The position numbers and the translations under genes were made by a program. 64,000 bases of DNA, taken from assembly GCA_015152565.1 (NCBI GenBank), contig SUTT01000002.1:18788-82787 (forward strand), written 5' to 3'. This DNA comes from Cyanobacteria bacterium SIG27. Lineage in GTDB: Bacteria > Cyanobacteriota > Vampirovibrionia > Gastranaerophilales > Gastranaerophilaceae. Every line of letters starts with the position of its first letter. Position 1 is the first letter of the stretch. Positions 21,988 through 25,437 of the stretch are shown here, piece by piece. Below the pieces are notes generated by a model, which did no database searches, was not told the origin of the DNA, and saw only the letters and a list, made by a program, of their open reading frames with translations.

Positions 21988-24900
21988 ATGGTCGATAAAA
22001 ATCAAATAGAAATTAAAATAACCCCTCTTAGTGTGTCTGATTTGAACGTAGGTAAGGTTGAAATTAAACCAAGCGAATCAACTAAACCCATTAGTTTTGA
22101 TACACCAAAAACTCCAAGTTCAGAAGCTTACAAGCAAGATTGCTTTAATTTAAATGAAGATGATATGTTCATTTTAGAGGCTTTAAGTTTTGAGAGCGCT
22201 TGTCCAGAGGTAAGCGATACCCCTTATAATGATTTTGAATACACCTCGCACAGCGCTCCTGATATATCCGATTCTGATAACGAAGTAAATGATGAAGCAA
22301 ATGAAACTCAAGCAGAAGAAAATTCTTCGCAAGAAAATTATGATTCAGAAATAAATAAATTAACTCAGCAATATTTACGAAAACCCATGAGTGAATGCTC
22401 TATTCAAGAAATTAACCAAGCCCAAACTCTTTCAATGCTTGAAACAAGTCTTGAAACAATCAAAGAGGGTTTAAAAGCGCAAAGCGATTCTGATGGATTA
22501 GTGAGCGAAGCTTTTGATTTAATGAAATACCTTACAGGTTTGGGAATTGACCAAAAAGATGTAGAAGCGGCAATTTTAAAACAAGAACAAACAATTGAAG
22601 CTCTAAAAAAAGCAGCACAAAAAGGAAACTTTGAAGAAGTCTTCAAACAAGCCACAGGAGTCGAATATGACCCTGTTAAAATAAGCGAATATCAGCAAAA
22701 AGAAGCAGAAATTAAATTTATTGAAATGGAAGTTGCAAGAAGCCAAGCTTTTTGTGAAGCTTTGAGCGATGAAGACACAATGTATGATGCACAAGCGACG
22801 TTTGACAAATTTATTGAATTTTACGGAAAAGAAAAAGGTGAAAAAGAGTTTCTTGAAGCCTTAAAATATGGCTTTAATAATACGATTGATTCAGGCTTTT
22901 ACGACCCAACAAATCCAATTGAGAGTATAAATTTTGATAAAAATGGAAATATTGTTTTAAAATTCCAGGATAAAACAACAGCCCAATTGGGAGATATCAG
23001 CACAATTAATCCTAATAACTTAACACCAATATATTCAGAAAAATTCAAAAACTCTTTGGTTGAAAATAACCTTGAAACTTTTGAACAAACAACAGGTTTA
23101 AACTATGAGCAGCTAGTTCAAGAATATACTGCGTTATCTCAAGAAACTTTAGGAAATGCCAATGCTGTAAGTAATACTTTAAATGAATATATTCAAAGCC
23201 AAGAGGGTTTTATTGATAAATTTGCTGGTCTTGTTCAACTTGGCGGCATTGGCTTAATGGGGCTTGGAAGCGCTGTTGTATTTTTTAGCGGAGGAACGGC
23301 AGGGCTTGGAATGATTAAAACAGGGCAGTGGATGGCTCTTGGAGGGACGTTTGGAGATGAAGCCTTAGAATTAACTGATACTTTCACAAATAACAACTTT
23401 TTAACTGATAAAGACAAAGCAAAATATAGAGAGATTTTCAAAGACGCTTTAACGGACGCTGCTTTACTTGGTGCAGGTTATATTGCCGGAAGCGCGGCAA
23501 ATAGCTTTGGAAATTGGGTCTTAAGCGAAACCGGAAATGAAATTGCAAAATTTATAGCAGACCACGGAACAGACGTTGCACTAAGTTTGCTTGGTGATAT
23601 GGTAATTACAGGCGAAGTTGATTTTAAAGGCGAAGGTTTTAGCCAATTATTAGGCATTATAACCGGTTCTGCTTTTTCAAGAATTAACGCTATGCATCAA
23701 TCAAATTTTGAAGCTGCGGATGTTTTTTATAAAAGCGGAGATTATGATAACGCATATAAATCATTAATTGAAAAGGGCTATAAAGATTCTGATATTCAAA
23801 AATATTATGGCAAACAAGAAATCCAAAGATTTAACGAAATGTATGAAAAAACAGGAGATTTCACTTCTGTTTTGGCTCTTGCTCAAAAATCCAAGCTTTT
23901 AAATGATAATCAAATTAAAAATCTTGAAGTTACAATGATGCTTAAAAGCTTAAAACAAGATGGAATTGAAGCCGCAAAATATATGGGCTATGATTTTTCT
24001 TGCCCACAAGGAAAATTAATTGCTGATGATATTAAAATGCTCTATGATGCAAAAACAACTGGTGTTAATGTTAATGATTTAATGGTGCCAACAAAAGCTA
24101 ATTTTGAAATTGGAAAATCAGAAACAAAAGTTGGTGGACTTTTTGAAAGTAACGGAAAACTATATTTAAAAACAGATGAAAATAATTGCACAGAATTAAA
24201 TATTAGCAAAGAAACATACTGTCATCTTTTCCCACCACTTGATAGATATTCATCAGGTCAACAAAATTCAGGAGATTGCTATTTGGTTTCAGCGCTAAAT
24301 GCAATGATGATTAATCCAAAAGCACAAGAAAAACTATTATCTTGTTTTTCTGAAAGTGTTGATGAAAACGGAGTAAAAACAATCACACTTGCTTTGCCTG
24401 ATTCTGACATGAAAATTGAAATCCTAGATTGGGAAACAATTGATGATTTAGGGGTAAACCCTAAAAAGGCAGTGACAGGTGCTTTAGGCATGCAATTATT
24501 AGAATATGGATATAAGAAAAATTTAGAATATAAAGAAATTAAAGATTTAACAGATGAAATTACTTCTATTGAAGAAAATATACTTACTGATTGGGAAATG
24601 CGAAAAGAATATTTAACAAGTCTTGGAATAGAAAACTATGAGGTTTTTTGCGAAAAAATTAAAAAACCTAATTTAATTTCAAATTACAAAAAAGATATAG
24701 AAGCTAAGTTCAATATAGAAATAGATGATTTAACATTTGAATCTCTTAATTATGATTTTATACTGGCTTATGACAATGGAAAGTTGTATCCTGCTTGTCG
24801 AGATTTAATAATGGATAAACTTGGTGTAGATGCGAAAACAGCCCAAGATATTTACGACAATGGCTTAAAAGAAGCTTTAGCATTATTTAACGTTAATAAA

Positions 24901-25437
24901 AATGCTTTAAGGCTTGAAGAATACAAAGCAAAACTTGAAAAAATAAACAATAATCCTCAATATTTTGAAAAATTGGGAGGAAAAGGCGGACAATCTAGTG
25001 AAGTATTTAAAGCTTTTGGACTTAAAGGGTCTTGTTGGGGCATTGGGTCAGATGTTCAACGTCCAATATATTTAGATATGATTGAAAACCCAGAAAAATA
25101 TAAAGATTGCGTTATAACTGCTGGAACTATGGCTACAAAAGCAACTTACATAAATGAATATAATGATCCTGATTCTTCATCATATAGTTATTGGCATGAA
25201 AACCCTGAAATATATCAAAAAACACTTAATGACGCACCTGATAGTTTGCCATTAGATTATTTGGTTGCAAATCATGCTTATAGTTTTAAAATAGTTCAAA
25301 ATGGAAATGGCGAAATAATGTTTGAAGTAATTAATCCTTGGGCGGTTCATTCGTCTGGCGACAAAAGAAGTTTCCTTTTAACGTTAGATGAGTTTAAAGC
25401 TTGTTTTAGTAATATTTATATTGGCAAATTGGAGTAA
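21988..25437 (+). CDS. 1149-aa protein with central Gly-rich hydrophobic region and C-terminal calpain-like (papain-fold C2-type) cysteine protease module
   Basis: QQNSGDCYLVSALNAMM places the Cys at aa 764. LVANHAYSF places the His at aa 1096. VINPWAV places the Asn at aa 1116. This reproduces the calpain Q..GDC[WY]L / HAYS / NPW pattern. The central hydrophobic region reads LGGIGLMGLGSAVVFFSGGTAGLGMIKTGQWMALGG. Confidence 0.7.
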   Translation: MVDKNQIEIKITPLSVSDLNVGKVEIKPSESTKPISFDTPKTPSSEAYKQDCFNLNEDDMFILEALSFESACPEVSDTPYNDFEYTSHSAPDISDSDNEVNDEANETQAEENSSQENYDSEINKLTQQYLRKPMSECSIQEINQAQTLSMLETSLETIKEGLKAQSDSDGLVSEAFDLMKYLTGLGIDQKDVEAAILKQEQTIEALKKAAQKGNFEEVFKQATGVEYDPVKISEYQQKEAEIKFIEMEVARSQAFCEALSDEDTMYDAQATFDKFIEFYGKEKGEKEFLEALKYGFNNTIDSGFYDPTNPIESINFDKNGNIVLKFQDKTTAQLGDISTINPNNLTPIYSEKFKNSLVENNLETFEQTTGLNYEQLVQEYTALSQETLGNANAVSNTLNEYIQSQEGFIDKFAGLVQLGGIGLMGLGSAVVFFSGGTAGLGMIKTGQWMALGGTFGDEALELTDTFTNNNFLTDKDKAKYREIFKDALTDAALLGAGYIAGSAANSFGNWVLSETGNEIAKFIADHGTDVALSLLGDMVITGEVDFKGEGFSQLLGIITGSAFSRINAMHQSNFEAADVFYKSGDYDNAYKSLIEKGYKDSDIQKYYGKQEIQRFNEMYEKTGDFTSVLALAQKSKLLNDNQIKNLEVTMMLKSLKQDGIEAAKYMGYDFSCPQGKLIADDIKMLYDAKTTGVNVNDLMVPTKANFEIGKSETKVGGLFESNGKLYLKTDENNCTELNISKETYCHLFPPLDRYSSGQQNSGDCYLVSALNAMMINPKAQEKLLSCFSESVDENGVKTITLALPDSDMKIEILDWETIDDLGVNPKKAVTGALGMQLLEYGYKKNLEYKEIKDLTDEITSIEENILTDWEMRKEYLTSLGIENYEVFCEKIKKPNLISNYKKDIEAKFNIEIDDLTFESLNYDFILAYDNGKLYPACRDLIMDKLGVDAKTAQDIYDNGLKEALALFNVNKNALRLEEYKAKLEKINNNPQYFEKLGGKGGQSSEVFKAFGLKGSCWGIGSDVQRPIYLDMIENPEKYKDCVITAGTMATKATYINEYNDPDSSSYSYWHENPEIYQKTLNDAPDSLPLDYLVANHAYSFKIVQNGNGEIMFEVINPWAVHSSGDKRSFLLTLDEFKACFSNIYIGKLE

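What the first reader, a model, noticed from the sequence alone, without database searches (positions are those of the whole stretch)
21988..25437. Calpain-like Cys/His/Asn protease module at the end of a 1149-aa bacterial protein with a glycine-zipper hydrophobic core
Seen in sequence:
- The catalytic pattern is QQNSGDCYLVSALNAMM (Cys764), LVANHAYSF (His1096) and VINPWAV (Asn1116).
- In the middle (nt 23221-23690) there are several Gly/Ala-rich hydrophobic stretches: LGGIGLMGLGSAVVFFSGGTAGLGMI, AALLGAGYIAGSAANSFG and LLGIITGSAF.

Established knowledge: calpains (peptidase family C2) have Q-x(3)-G-D-C-[WY]-[LF], H-A-Y-[ST] and N-P-W around their catalytic triad. The His-Asn spacing is similar to that seen here.

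Inference:
- The hydrophobic stretches resemble the membrane-insertion segments of large toxins or effectors.
- The acidic, low-complexity N-terminus has no Sec signal.
- This may be a secreted or translocated cysteine-protease effector, which would be unusual for bacteria.
Basis: partly seen in the sequence, partly recalled or inferred. Interest (0 to 1): 0.65.

Follow-up and report, generated by a model that had tools for sequence, protein, structure and literature searches.

The report
Modular calpain-like protease toxin with partner gene
This gene from an uncultured gut bacterium (probably Gastranaerophilales, non-photosynthetic relatives of cyanobacteria) encodes a large modular protein. 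A lineage-specific carrier region is joined to a divergent calpain-type cysteine protease and followed by a small conserved partner gene, which is the layout of a swappable toxin with its antidote, though export has not been shown.

Summary
ORF 21988-25437 encodes 1149 aa with Q758/C764, H1096 and N1116 in calpain-type motifs, plus Gly/Ala-rich hydrophobic stretches at aa 412-568.

The C-terminal 477 aa are a real but divergent calpain-like (clan CA, family C2-like) protease domain:
- The single sequence scores below Pfam's cut-off.
- A 49-member family profile hits solved calpains (E=2e-9).
- The AF2 model (pLDDT 89) finds calpain cores as its top 12 structural matches.
- The catalytic residues are nearly invariant across relatives.

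New findings:
- Residues ~110-578 form a conserved carrier module. In the species-representative genomes scanned it occurs only in Gastranaerophilales/Melainabacteria gut MAGs, apart from one bin labelled Muribaculaceae.
- Relatives fuse this module to different C-terminal enzymes: calpain-like, HExxH, AvrB-like, and possibly RelA/SpoT- and ART-like.
- A translationally coupled 97-aa gene (25442-25735) accompanies calpain-type cargos in 10 of 13 loci and never other cargos.
- The adjacent upstream gene carries one of the alternative cargos on another carrier.

Best reading: a polymorphic toxin/effector with a cognate immunity-like partner. Export route, target and activity are unproven. Bacterial calpain homologues were already known, so this is a new variant of a known kind.

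The parts
21988..25437 (+). Effector gene, 1149 aa (ATG to TAA)
   Evidence: ORF list and translation. Full-length homologues at 99%, 80% and 42% identity.
21988..22314 (+). Variable acidic N-terminal region (aa 1-109). No Sec-like hydrophobic segment. Contains conserved DD..IL..L (D58, D59, L63) and an 'ISFD' motif at aa 34-37.
   Evidence: Alignment invariants, composition and hydropathy. Related N-terminal S[IVL][FY] motifs in relatives (motif defined post hoc).
22315..23721 (+). Conserved lineage-specific carrier module (aa ~110-578). Mostly alpha-helical and unannotated.
   Evidence: Conserved in proteins with different C-termini. No Pfam, NCBIfam, PADLOC or PDB match. AF2 pLDDT 70-90 for aa ~110-400 and below 50 for aa 405-567. 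Among genome hits, 9 of 10 loci are labelled Gastranaerophilales, Melainabacteria or unclassified.
23224..23361 (+). Gly-rich hydrophobic helical hairpin followed by the most conserved motif of the module, A-[LI]-[AG]-G-T-F-G-D-E-A-L-E (aa 413-458)
   Evidence: Kyte-Doolittle peak of 1.86. Invariant G420, M424, G427, F432, G439, G446, A450, G453-E458. This motif served as the search pattern.
23722..24003 (+). Linker (aa 579-672). Its first ~40 aa are shared with several non-calpain members. The junction where cargos diverge lies at aa ~570-615.
   Evidence: Alignment A1. Sequences of L011 and L015.
24004..25434 (+). Calpain-like cysteine protease cargo module (aa 673-1149), including a conserved ~85-aa pre-region
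   Evidence: 449 relatives at E<=1e-3. Profile against PDB calpains E=2.2e-9. AF2 pLDDT 89.2. Foldseek top 12 matches are calpain cores.
24259..24279 (+). Codons for Q758 (oxyanion-hole Gln) through C764 (nucleophile), QQNSGDC
   Evidence: Cys is the first residue of helix 92-102 in the model.
24484..24948 (+). About 155-aa all-helical insert (aa 833-987) between the Cys half and the GG motif/His-Asn half. Variable or absent in relatives.
   Evidence: Model secondary structure, helices spanning model residues 161-315 (H161-H315). Alignment A5 gaps. Split profile matches in relatives.
25273..25335 (+). Codons for H1096 (HAYS) through N1116 (NPW)
   Evidence: His precedes strand 425-432 and Asn follows strand 438-443 in the model.
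25442..25735 (+). Partner gene, 97 aa. GTG start 4 nt after the effector stop, GGAG at 25431-25434. Motif M.KSDF.N...RY[IL].E. Candidate immunity protein or inhibitor.
   Evidence: Sequence. Homologues directly adjacent to calpain-type genes in 10 of 13 distinct loci and 0 of 5 non-calpain carrier loci, Fisher p=0.0065. No known family.
19405..21912 (+). Adjacent second putative effector, 835 aa. About 7 'NPDGxYRFN' repeats at the N-terminus and an HExxH (HELAH) C-terminal module.
   Evidence: The C-terminal 360 aa are 36% identical (E=5e-46) to the cargo of the L006 carrier-module protein. The repeats match the N-terminus of calpain-type P0051 (E=1e-7).
25846..26757 (+). Conserved downstream 303-aa gene of unknown function, possibly in the same transcription unit
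   Evidence: 57% identical to the gene downstream of P0003. Same cluster near the L015 effector. The only terminator-like hairpin in the region follows it, at 26784-26809.

Best explanation
The gene encodes a modular polymorphic toxin/effector of a Gastranaerophilales-type bacterium.

Shown:
- A lineage-specific ~470-aa helical carrier module (aa ~110-578) with a Gly-rich hydrophobic hairpin is joined to a C-terminal cargo.
- Here the cargo is a divergent calpain-like cysteine protease with an intact Gln/Cys/His/Asn active site and a large helical insert.
- In relatives the same carrier bears other enzymes, and the same cargos sit on other carriers.
- A 97-aa gene, apparently translationally coupled, is linked specifically to the calpain-type cargo.

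Inferred:
- The protein leaves the producer by a non-Sec route.
- The hydrophobic hairpin and the flanking amphipathic helices help it insert into or cross a target membrane.
- The protease then cleaves target-cell proteins.
- The 97-aa partner binds the protease in the producer and keeps it inactive (immunity).
- Because a self-protection gene seems to be needed, the target is more likely a competing bacterium than the animal host.
For: Calpain-like domain:
- Weak PF00648 hit at the Cys motif.
- 38 of 49 relatives hit PF00648 at E<0.01, and no other family recurs.
- The family profile hits calpain-9, -1, -2, -8 and -3 in PDB (best E=2.2e-9). The aligned regions cover the Cys motif, the GG motif, HAYS and NPW.
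- AF2 model: pLDDT 89, pTM 0.85.
- Foldseek top 12 matches are all calpain cores at probability 1.00.
- Catalytic residues are near-invariant.

Modularity:
- The carrier module is shared by proteins with calpain-like, HExxH, AvrB/XopAH-like (PF05394 E=1.9e-14), FHA-containing and other C-termini.
- The HExxH cargo also sits on a repeat carrier in the neighbouring gene.
- That repeat carrier also bears a calpain cargo in P0051.
- Two paralogues with different cargos occur in one MAG (L011 and L013).

Cargo position: in 112 of 119 relatives the domain ends within 40 aa of the C-terminus.

Partner gene: adjacent in 10 of 13 calpain-type loci and 0 of 5 others, p=0.0065, with gaps of 0-29 nt.

Precedent:
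- Papain-like protease toxins with adjacent 79-239-aa immunity proteins (PMC12136450).
- Bacterial calpains fused to toxin-delivery domains (PMC4631099).
Against: - There is no direct or indirect evidence of export. No signal peptide, no known trafficking domain, and no secretion genes nearby.
- The carrier module has no detectable similarity to any known translocation domain. Its hydrophobic part is modelled with pLDDT below 50.
- The partner gene is missing from 3 calpain-type loci, including the full-length orthologue P0003.
- The partner is about as conserved as the protease and has a strong shared motif, which is less typical of fast-evolving immunity proteins.
- Pairwise identities of protease and partner did not correlate significantly (rho 0.20, p=0.25).
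- The single sequence is below Pfam's gathering score, and Foldseek TM-scores are only 0.2-0.3.
- Triad geometry could not be measured.
Confidence: 0.55

Rival explanations
1. It is a host-directed (eukaryote-directed) effector. The same architecture applies, but the protease and sister cargos act on animal gut cells or gut protists. The small partner would then be a chaperone or a pre-export inhibitor rather than immunity against incoming toxin.
For: - Calpain-type proteases and AvrB/XopAH-type domains are best known for acting on eukaryotic substrates. An AvrB-like cargo sits on the same carrier in L015.
- All source genomes are gut MAGs of mammals and birds.
- A relative in the class, Vampirovibrio, preys on algae (PMC4451040).
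- The partner is well conserved, like a chaperone.
Against: - The partner tracks the cargo type, not the carrier. That pattern fits immunity better than a secretion chaperone.
- The possible RelA/SpoT-like and ART-like sister cargos are typical of interbacterial toxins, but these assignments are weak.
- No host-contact secretion system was identified.
Confidence: 0.17
2. It is an intracellular conflict module (abortive-infection or toxin-antitoxin-like defence). The conserved N-terminal module would act as a sensor or membrane anchor, the variable C-terminal enzyme would kill or arrest the producer on phage attack, and the small partner would act as antitoxin. Nothing is exported.
For: - A conserved N-terminal region with swappable effector enzymes is also the design of many defence systems.
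- There is no export signal or secretion partner.
- A hydrophobic hairpin would leave both ends in the cytoplasm.
- A type I/IIG restriction-modification gene lies in the same window.
Against: - No PADLOC match for the effector, partner or relatives.
- The loci sit among housekeeping genes rather than in defence islands.
- No nucleotide-sensing or NTPase domains were found.
- Very large multi-domain relatives (up to 4875 aa, some with several protease copies) look like exported toxins.
Confidence: 0.13
3. It is a housekeeping or regulatory membrane-anchored protease of the producer cell, for example for envelope or flagellar protein processing, with the small gene as a regulator.
For: - Chromosomal location among housekeeping genes, with synteny to L001.
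- Hydrophobic hairpin.
- Conserved downstream 303-aa gene.
Against: - A housekeeping role does not explain why the same N-terminal module carries unrelated enzymes, or why one genome holds several paralogues with different cargos.
- Distribution is patchy and divergence is fast: 42% identity between syntenic orthologues, against 57% for the neighbouring gene.
Confidence: 0.1
4. The calpain resemblance is a chance motif match or an inactive pseudo-protease domain.
For: - The single-sequence Pfam score is below the gathering cut-off (16.1 against 23.8 bits).
- There is no single-sequence PDB hit.
- Foldseek TM-scores are low.
Against: - Significant profile-level hit to calpains.
- All four catalytic residues are present and near-invariant.
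- High-confidence model with Cys at a helix N-terminus and His/Asn on adjacent strands.
- Calpains rank first structurally.
Confidence: 0.03

Closest known systems
Bacterial calpain homologues, MEROPS family C2 (Rawlings 2015, PMC4631099; e.g. Porphyromonas gingivalis Tpr, and homologues fused to WXG100 or Tox-PL/deaminase modules)
   Same: - Gln/Cys/His/Asn active site with calpain-type motifs.
- Peptidase domain at the C-terminal end of multidomain proteins.
- No Ca-binding EF-hand or domain III.
- Mostly no signal peptide.
- Some are fused to toxin-delivery modules.
   Different: - Too divergent for Pfam PF00648 at its gathering score.
- About 155-aa helical insert, and a Cys-His distance of 332 residues.
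- A conserved ~85-aa pre-region.
- A new N-terminal carrier.
- A dedicated small partner gene.
- Found in Melainabacteria, a group not covered in the 2015 or 2022 surveys read here.
Cpe1-Cpi1 papain-like cysteine protease toxin and immunity pairs of T6SS/CDI systems (PMC12136450)
   Same: - Clan CA cysteine protease as the C-terminal cargo of a modular toxin.
- A small (79-239 aa) cognate protein encoded directly downstream.
- The toxin domain occurs on different delivery modules.
   Different: - Cpe1 is ComA/LahT (C39)-like, not calpain-like.
- Its carriers are known T6SS/CDI domains (PAAR, VgrG, Rhs, CdiA), whereas no known delivery domain is present here.
- Activity, target and immunity are shown by experiment for Cpe1 and not here.
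Polymorphic toxin systems in general (Zhang et al. 2012, cited in PMC4631099): LXG/T7SS, Rhs, CdiA, MafB
   Same: - Conserved N-terminal region, variable C-terminal enzymatic tips, and cargo-specific downstream gene.
- Several paralogues per genome.
- Cargo and carrier are shuffled.
   Different: - The carrier module matches none of the known trafficking domains.
- No secretion system is linked to it.
- It contains an internal hydrophobic hairpin rather than N-terminal TM helices or a PAAR/LXG domain.
Eukaryotic calpain protease core (PC1/PC2; PDB 2p0r, 1ziv, 6bjd, 2g8e)
   Same: - Best sequence-profile and structural matches.
- Shared motifs Q-x3-G-D-C-[WY], GG...F.G, H-A-Y-[ST] and N-P-W.
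   Different: - 15-17% identity over ~207 aligned positions, TM 0.2-0.3.
- Large insert.
- No Pfam match to any calpain accessory domain (domain III, EF-hand). The Ca-binding residues of the core were not examined.
Membrane-inserting toxin translocation domains (colicin pore-forming domain, diphtheria toxin T domain, hydrophobic region of large clostridial toxins)
   Same: Resemblance of design only: a hydrophobic Gly-rich helical hairpin embedded among amphipathic helices in a soluble protein that lacks a signal peptide.
   Different: - No sequence or structural similarity detected.
- Here the module lies N-terminal to the cargo.
- Membrane insertion is untested.

Membership tests
Peptidase family C2 (calpain) / Pfam PF00648 | Catalytic residues in the order Gln (oxyanion hole), Cys, His, Asn, with the motifs Q-x3-G-D-C-[WY], H-A-Y-[ST] and N-P-W | tested here: met
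   Q758, C764, H1096 and N1116 are present. They are conserved in 155/159, 157/162, 79/79 and 78/79 aligned relatives.
Peptidase family C2 (calpain) / Pfam PF00648 | The single sequence reaches the curated Pfam gathering score | tested here: not met
   16.1 bits against a cut-off of 23.8, E=0.006, and only aa 757-788 aligned. All close relatives have no precomputed Pfam domain.
Peptidase family C2 (calpain) / Pfam PF00648 | Statistically significant sequence relationship of the peptidase unit to bona fide calpains | tested here: met
   - The 49-sequence family profile hits calpain-9 (E=2.2e-9) and calpain-1 (3.5e-6 to 6e-5), with calpain-8, -3 and -2 at weaker scores.
- No non-calpain chain appears among the 17 hits.
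- 38 of 49 members hit PF00648 at E<0.01 (best 2.6e-8), and every other family appears once.
Peptidase family C2 (calpain) / Pfam PF00648 | Papain-like two-lobe fold closest to calpain protease cores | tested here: met
   - AF2 pLDDT 89.2, pTM 0.85.
- The Foldseek top 12 PDB matches are calpain-9, -3 and -1 cores, probability 1.00, E 1.8e-4 to 3e-3.
- Caveat: TM 0.2-0.3 and rmsd ~8 A over ~207 columns, because of the inserts.
Peptidase family C2 (calpain) / Pfam PF00648 | The three catalytic residues converge in 3-D (Cys-His within hydrogen-bond distance) | not testable with these tools
Only secondary structure is available: Cys at the N-terminus of a helix, His and Asn on neighbouring strands.
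Peptidase family C2 (calpain) / Pfam PF00648 | Calpain accessory features (Ca-binding sites, domain III/C2L, penta-EF-hand) | tested here: not met
   No such Pfam domains in the protein. According to PMC4631099, bacterial homologues generally lack them, so this does not exclude family membership. Ca-site residues were not examined.
Polymorphic toxin system | Conserved N-terminal region joined to alternative, unrelated C-terminal enzymatic domains in related proteins | tested here: met
   - The carrier module carries calpain-like, HExxH, AvrB-like, FHA-containing, weakly RelA/SpoT-like and ART-like (by eye) C-termini.
- Carrier and cargo are shuffled in a 2x2 pattern.
Polymorphic toxin system | Toxin domain at the extreme C-terminus | tested here: met
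   112 of 119 relatives with a matched His/Asn segment end within 40 aa of the C-terminus.
Polymorphic toxin system | Small gene directly downstream that goes with the toxin type (cognate immunity) | tested here: inconclusive
   - Linkage is met: 10 of 13 calpain-type loci against 0 of 5 other carrier loci, p=0.0065, gaps 0-29 nt.
- The protective function is untested.
- The gene is absent from 3 loci.
- The co-variation test was not significant.
Polymorphic toxin system | Recognisable trafficking domain or linkage to a secretion system (T5/T6/T7, etc.) | tested here: not met
   No Pfam or NCBIfam hit in the N-terminal 670 aa. Neighbouring genes are housekeeping and not conserved between loci.
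Membrane-inserting translocation domain (colicin / diphtheria T-like) | Homology or fold similarity to a known translocation domain | tested here: not met
   Profile against PDB found nothing. Foldseek returned only coiled-coil-type noise at probability <=0.2. No recurrent Pfam family.
Membrane-inserting translocation domain (colicin / diphtheria T-like) | Hydrophobic helical hairpin within an amphipathic helical domain | tested here: inconclusive
   One membrane-grade segment at aa 413-445. It is predicted helical, but with pLDDT below 50.
Known anti-phage defence systems (PADLOC) | Match to a defence-system protein model | tested here: not met
   No hits for the effector, the neighbours or five relatives. 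The partner has one chance-level hit (E=0.0014).

The most novel reading that the evidence does not exclude
The ~470-aa carrier module would be a previously undescribed, Melainabacteria-specific delivery device that exports and/or self-translocates swappable enzymatic cargos without any of the known toxin secretion systems. Possible routes are the flagellar export apparatus or a colicin-like release-and-insert mechanism. The 97-aa protein would be a new family of calpain-type protease inhibitors.
Probability: 0.25. Interest if true: 0.8.

Novelty: new variant of a known kind. Interest (0 to 1): 0.58.

Why it matters
- Gastranaerophilales are common but uncultured members of animal and human gut communities. 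Almost nothing is known about how they interact with neighbours or hosts.
- This locus suggests they have their own family of swappable-cargo toxins, built on a carrier that matches no known delivery domain. At least two cargo types lie side by side in this window.
- It adds a large, unannotated branch to the calpain family: 449 representatives at 50% clustering, invisible to Pfam at its cut-off. It also adds a candidate natural protein inhibitor for that branch.
- Both predictions can be tested with simple co-expression experiments.
- If the carrier proves to be a self-contained export or translocation device, that would be a new mechanism of protein delivery.

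Tried and rejected
- **Single-sequence searches.** Searches of the whole protein and of a 3-sequence C-terminal profile against PDB sequences gave nothing relevant. A 49-sequence profile was needed.
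- **Word-indexed homologue searches.** Searches with alignments returned few proteins. They served mainly to obtain sequences allowed for structure prediction.
- **Carrier module.**
  - Profile against PDB: nothing.
  - AF2 model: poor in the hydrophobic half.
  - Foldseek: only coiled-coil noise, including low-probability flagellin and alpha-pore-forming toxin matches that I do not count.
  - Pfam on nine members: no recurrent family.
- **RelA/SpoT-like reading of the P0004/P0005/P0156 cargo.** There are only weak Pfam hits (E=0.002 and 0.025) on complementary parts of the model. A 3-sequence profile found no RelA/SpoT structure in PDB. I keep it as a lead only.
- **ART-like reading of the L011/L013 cargos.** This rests on R-S-E-like motifs seen by eye and has no database support.
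- **Upstream 835-aa protein against the P0006 HExxH region.** Not significantly similar. It is, however, clearly related to the L006 cargo.
- **Conserved upstream partner genes.** None found; upstream genes differ between loci.
- **Protease-partner co-variation.** Not significant.
- **Other libraries and collections.** PADLOC and NCBIfam gave nothing. Phage genomes, plasmids and IMG/VR held no relatives, so a mobile-element origin is not supported.
- **Source names of relatives.** None were available.
- **Promoter scan.** No more sites than chance.

Full report
**1. Observation**

ORF 21988-25437 (+) is intact and encodes 1149 aa.

The Gly/Ala-rich stretches are at aa 418-443, 491-508 and 554-563. 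By Kyte-Doolittle hydropathy only aa ~413-445 reaches membrane-helix values (19-residue mean up to 1.86). The others are amphipathic, with small-xxx-small spacing.

The first 125 aa are acidic (29 D/E, 8 K/R) and have no hydrophobic segment, so there is no Sec-like signal by this crude test.

The window is about 30% G+C and chromosomal. It also holds ribBA, fliM, era, polA, priA and a restriction-modification gene.

**2. The C-terminal module is a divergent calpain-like protease**

On its own the protein gives only a sub-threshold PF00648 hit over the Cys motif (16.1 bits; cut-off 23.8) and no PDB sequence hit.

An exhaustive profile search with aa 673-1149 and two orthologues found 449 cluster representatives at E<=1e-3, of which 269 are at <=1e-10. 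They occur in proteins of 125-4875 aa.

In these relatives the catalytic positions are almost invariant:

| Residue | Conserved in aligned relatives |
|---|---|
| Gln758 | 155/159 |
| Gly762 | 145/161 |
| Cys764 | 157/162 |
| His1096 | 79/79 |
| Asn1116 | 78/79 |
| Pro1117 | 79/79 |

Further evidence for the calpain relationship:
- Of 49 shorter members, 38 hit PF00648 at E<0.01 (best 2.6e-8), and no other family recurs.
- A profile of those 49 finds only calpains among solved structures (calpain-9 at E=2.2e-9, calpain-1 at 3.5e-6, and others). The alignments cover the Cys motif, the calpain GG...F.G motif (here EKLGGKGGQSSEVFKAFG), HAYS and NPW.
- An AF2 model built on nine sequences is confident (pLDDT 89.2, pTM 0.85). 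Cys sits at the N-terminus of a helix, and His and Asn sit on neighbouring strands, as in papain-fold enzymes.
- Its 12 best PDB matches are all calpain cores at probability 1.00. However, TM-scores are only 0.2-0.3 over ~207 columns.

The low TM-scores fit two features:
- An all-helical insert of about 155 aa (aa 833-987) that is variable or absent in relatives.
- A second insert of about 40 aa before His.

I could not measure the triad geometry because model coordinates are not exposed.

Conclusion: the domain is homologous to calpains and has an intact active site, but it belongs to a branch that Pfam does not capture at its curated threshold.

**3. The N-terminal part is a conserved, lineage-specific carrier**

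The first homologue search gave six proteins. Three share the whole architecture (99%, 80% and 42% identity). Three share only aa ~1-600 and then have different C-termini.

A profile of the shared region (core aa ~110-578) also matches 16 further calpain-type proteins of 1000-1770 aa.

In one-genome-per-species bacterial and archaeal assemblies it matched 10 loci:
- 8 are labelled Candidatus Gastranaerophilales or Melainabacteria.
- 1 is labelled 'uncultured bacterium'.
- 1 is a bin labelled Muribaculaceae.
- All come from goat, mouse, rabbit and chicken gut.

Related contigs also carry LptF/G and SepF genes. The window encodes FliM and a pilin-like gene. This fits a flagellated diderm relative of cyanobacteria.

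The module has no match in Pfam, NCBIfam, PADLOC or PDB sequences. Its AF2 model is helical: moderately confident for aa ~110-400 and very uncertain (pLDDT below 50) for the hydrophobic part at aa 405-567. Foldseek returns only noise.

The most conserved element is the hairpin followed by A-[LI]-[AG]-G-T-F-G-D-E-A-L-E.

**4. Cargos are swapped**

C-terminal regions found on the carrier module:

| Cargo | Where | Support |
|---|---|---|
| Calpain-like | window, L001, L007-L010, L012, L014 | |
| HExxH domain | P0006, L006 | motif seen in the printed sequences; L006 cargo homologous to the window's HELAH-bearing C-terminus |
| AvrB/XopAH-like | L015 | PF05394 E=1.9e-14; NF041403 E=3.5e-16, below NCBIfam's cut-off |
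| Region with an FHA domain | L011 | E=1e-6 |
| RelA/SpoT-like motifs | P0004, P0005, P0156 | weak only: E=0.002 and 0.025; no PDB support |
| R-S-E (ART-like) motifs | L011, L013 | by eye only |

One MAG has two paralogues with different cargos (L011 and L013).

The gene directly upstream in the window (19405-21912, 835 aa) has a C-terminal HELAH module that is 36% identical (E=5e-46) to the L006 cargo. It sits on a different N-terminal region made of about seven 'NPDGxYRFN' repeats. That repeat region in turn precedes a calpain-like domain in P0051 (E=1e-7). Two carriers and two cargos therefore occur in all four combinations.

In 112 of 119 relatives the calpain-like domain ends within 40 aa of the C-terminus.

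**5. A cargo-specific partner gene**

A small ORF follows the effector. Its likely start is GTG 25442, 4 nt after the TAA, with GGAG 8 nt upstream, giving 97 aa.

Where homologues are found:
- Directly after the calpain-type genes in L007, L008, L009, L010, L012, L014, L016 and L018, with gaps of 0-29 nt.
- Directly before the calpain-type gene in L020.
- This includes proteins that lack the carrier module.
- Absent from all five distinct non-calpain carrier loci.
- Absent from three calpain-type loci (L001/L002, L017, L019).

The counts are 10/13 against 0/5, Fisher p=0.0065.

Homologues share the motif M.KSDF.N...RY[IL].E and match no known family. Protease and partner pairwise identities do not correlate significantly. 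Because the gene follows the cargo and not the carrier, it looks like an immunity protein or inhibitor rather than a secretion chaperone.

No terminator-like site lies between the effector, the partner and the conserved 303-aa gene. One follows that gene at 26784-26809.

**6. Mechanism**

Shown: the domain identities, the modular shuffling and the partner linkage.

Inferred:
- The protein is exported by a non-Sec route.
- The hydrophobic hairpin and flanking amphipathic helices mediate membrane insertion or translocation.
- The protease cleaves proteins in a target cell.
- The partner inhibits it in the producer.

The need for a partner points to a target that the producer also possesses, so bacteria are more likely than the host.

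Weak points:
- No export evidence and no secretion-system linkage.
- A carrier with no known relatives.
- A missing partner in three loci.

Rivals are listed with their confidences in the Rival explanations section:
- A host-directed effector.
- An intracellular defence or toxin-antitoxin-like module.
- A housekeeping membrane protease.
- A chance or inactive domain.

**7. Comparison with what is known**

- Bacterial calpain homologues were catalogued in 2015: 67 in seven phyla, mostly with a C-terminal peptidase domain, few with signal peptides, and some fused to WXG100 or Tox-PL/deaminase modules. A reviewer of that paper noted that these are probably secreted toxins (PMC4631099).
- A 2022 survey of cyanobacterial calpains does not mention Melainabacteria.
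- Papain-like protease toxins with adjacent small immunity proteins are established for T6SS/CDI systems. Those belong to a different clan CA family and ride on known delivery domains (PMC12136450).

What is new here:
- The divergent calpain branch with its insert.
- The Gastranaerophilales-specific carrier.
- The partner family.

No relatives occur in phage, plasmid or IMG/VR collections.

**8. Verdict**

The protease assignment is supported, and the effector interpretation is strengthened but unproven. The claim of rarity in bacteria is overstated. This is a new variant of a known kind, and interest is moderate to fairly high (0.58).

Noticed in passing
window 19405-21912 (+): 835-aa protein with about seven ~33-aa 'NPDGxYRFN...' repeats at the N-terminus and a C-terminal HELAH (HExxH) module. 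The module is homologous to the cargo of a carrier-module protein in another genome (36% identity, E=5e-46). This is probably a second effector next to the first. No small partner ORF of 60 aa or more lies between the two genes (76-nt gap).
   Followed up: partly
window 25846-26757 (+); L001:13566-14519; L015:12707-13411: Conserved 303-aa protein that begins MGLSASQARFLQLTAR and has a coiled-coil-like C-terminus. It has no family match. It is 57% identical to the gene downstream of the orthologous effector, so it is better conserved than the effector itself (42%). A relative also lies near a third effector locus. The only terminator-like hairpin of the region follows it (26784-26809).
   Followed up: partly
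N-termini of relatives P0007-P0154; window aa 34-37: Two recurrent leader-like features appear at the N-termini of calpain-type relatives.
- Long proteins: S[IVL][FY][DE..] at aa ~29-56 in 19 of 78, against 5% of background windows.
- Short proteins: a start like M-[QKRH]-I-N-x-x-N followed about 40 aa later by PSAELLKA-type motifs (7 strict matches, 0 in 1338 background windows).
Both patterns were defined after looking at the data. They could mark a lineage-specific export signal. None of the 151 relatives has a Sec-like N-terminus.
   Followed up: partly
L015:6927-11063; L018:12265-13098: An AvrB/XopAH-like domain (the family of plant-pathogen type III effectors) occurs as C-terminal cargo on the carrier module in a mouse-gut Gastranaerophilales MAG (PF05394 E=1.9e-14). 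A weak AvrB_AvrC gene lies near another calpain-type locus.
   Followed up: no
P0019-P0027 (relatives): Some relatives contain two copies of the Cys-half of the calpain-like domain. One 4875-aa protein has at least three or four partial or complete copies.
   Followed up: no
window 27048-27875 (+): 275-aa protein with a type IV pilin-like N-terminal methylation motif (PF07963, E=8.8e-5, above the cut-off) and a Cys-rich C-terminal part.
   Followed up: no
window 28146-37436 (-): Four consecutive large genes (1330, 633, 778 and 338 aa) have no Pfam hit at the thresholds used. By eye, the 633-aa protein has an alpha-amylase-like 'GIDGIRADV' motif. The 778- and 338-aa proteins have hydrophobic segments.
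   Followed up: no
window 41109-48568 (-): A 1222-aa fusion of N6-methylase, Eco57I-like and type I specificity domains lies next to a 1263-aa UvrD-like helicase. This is a possible restriction/defence pair in the same window.
   Followed up: no
window 16875-18215 (-): 446-aa protein with only sub-threshold response-regulator receiver and GGDEF matches.
   Followed up: no
L010 (CAYYPD010000039.1): One carrier-module locus comes from a bin labelled 'uncultured Muribaculaceae'. All the others are Gastranaerophilales, Melainabacteria or unclassified, so this may be a binning error.
   Followed up: no
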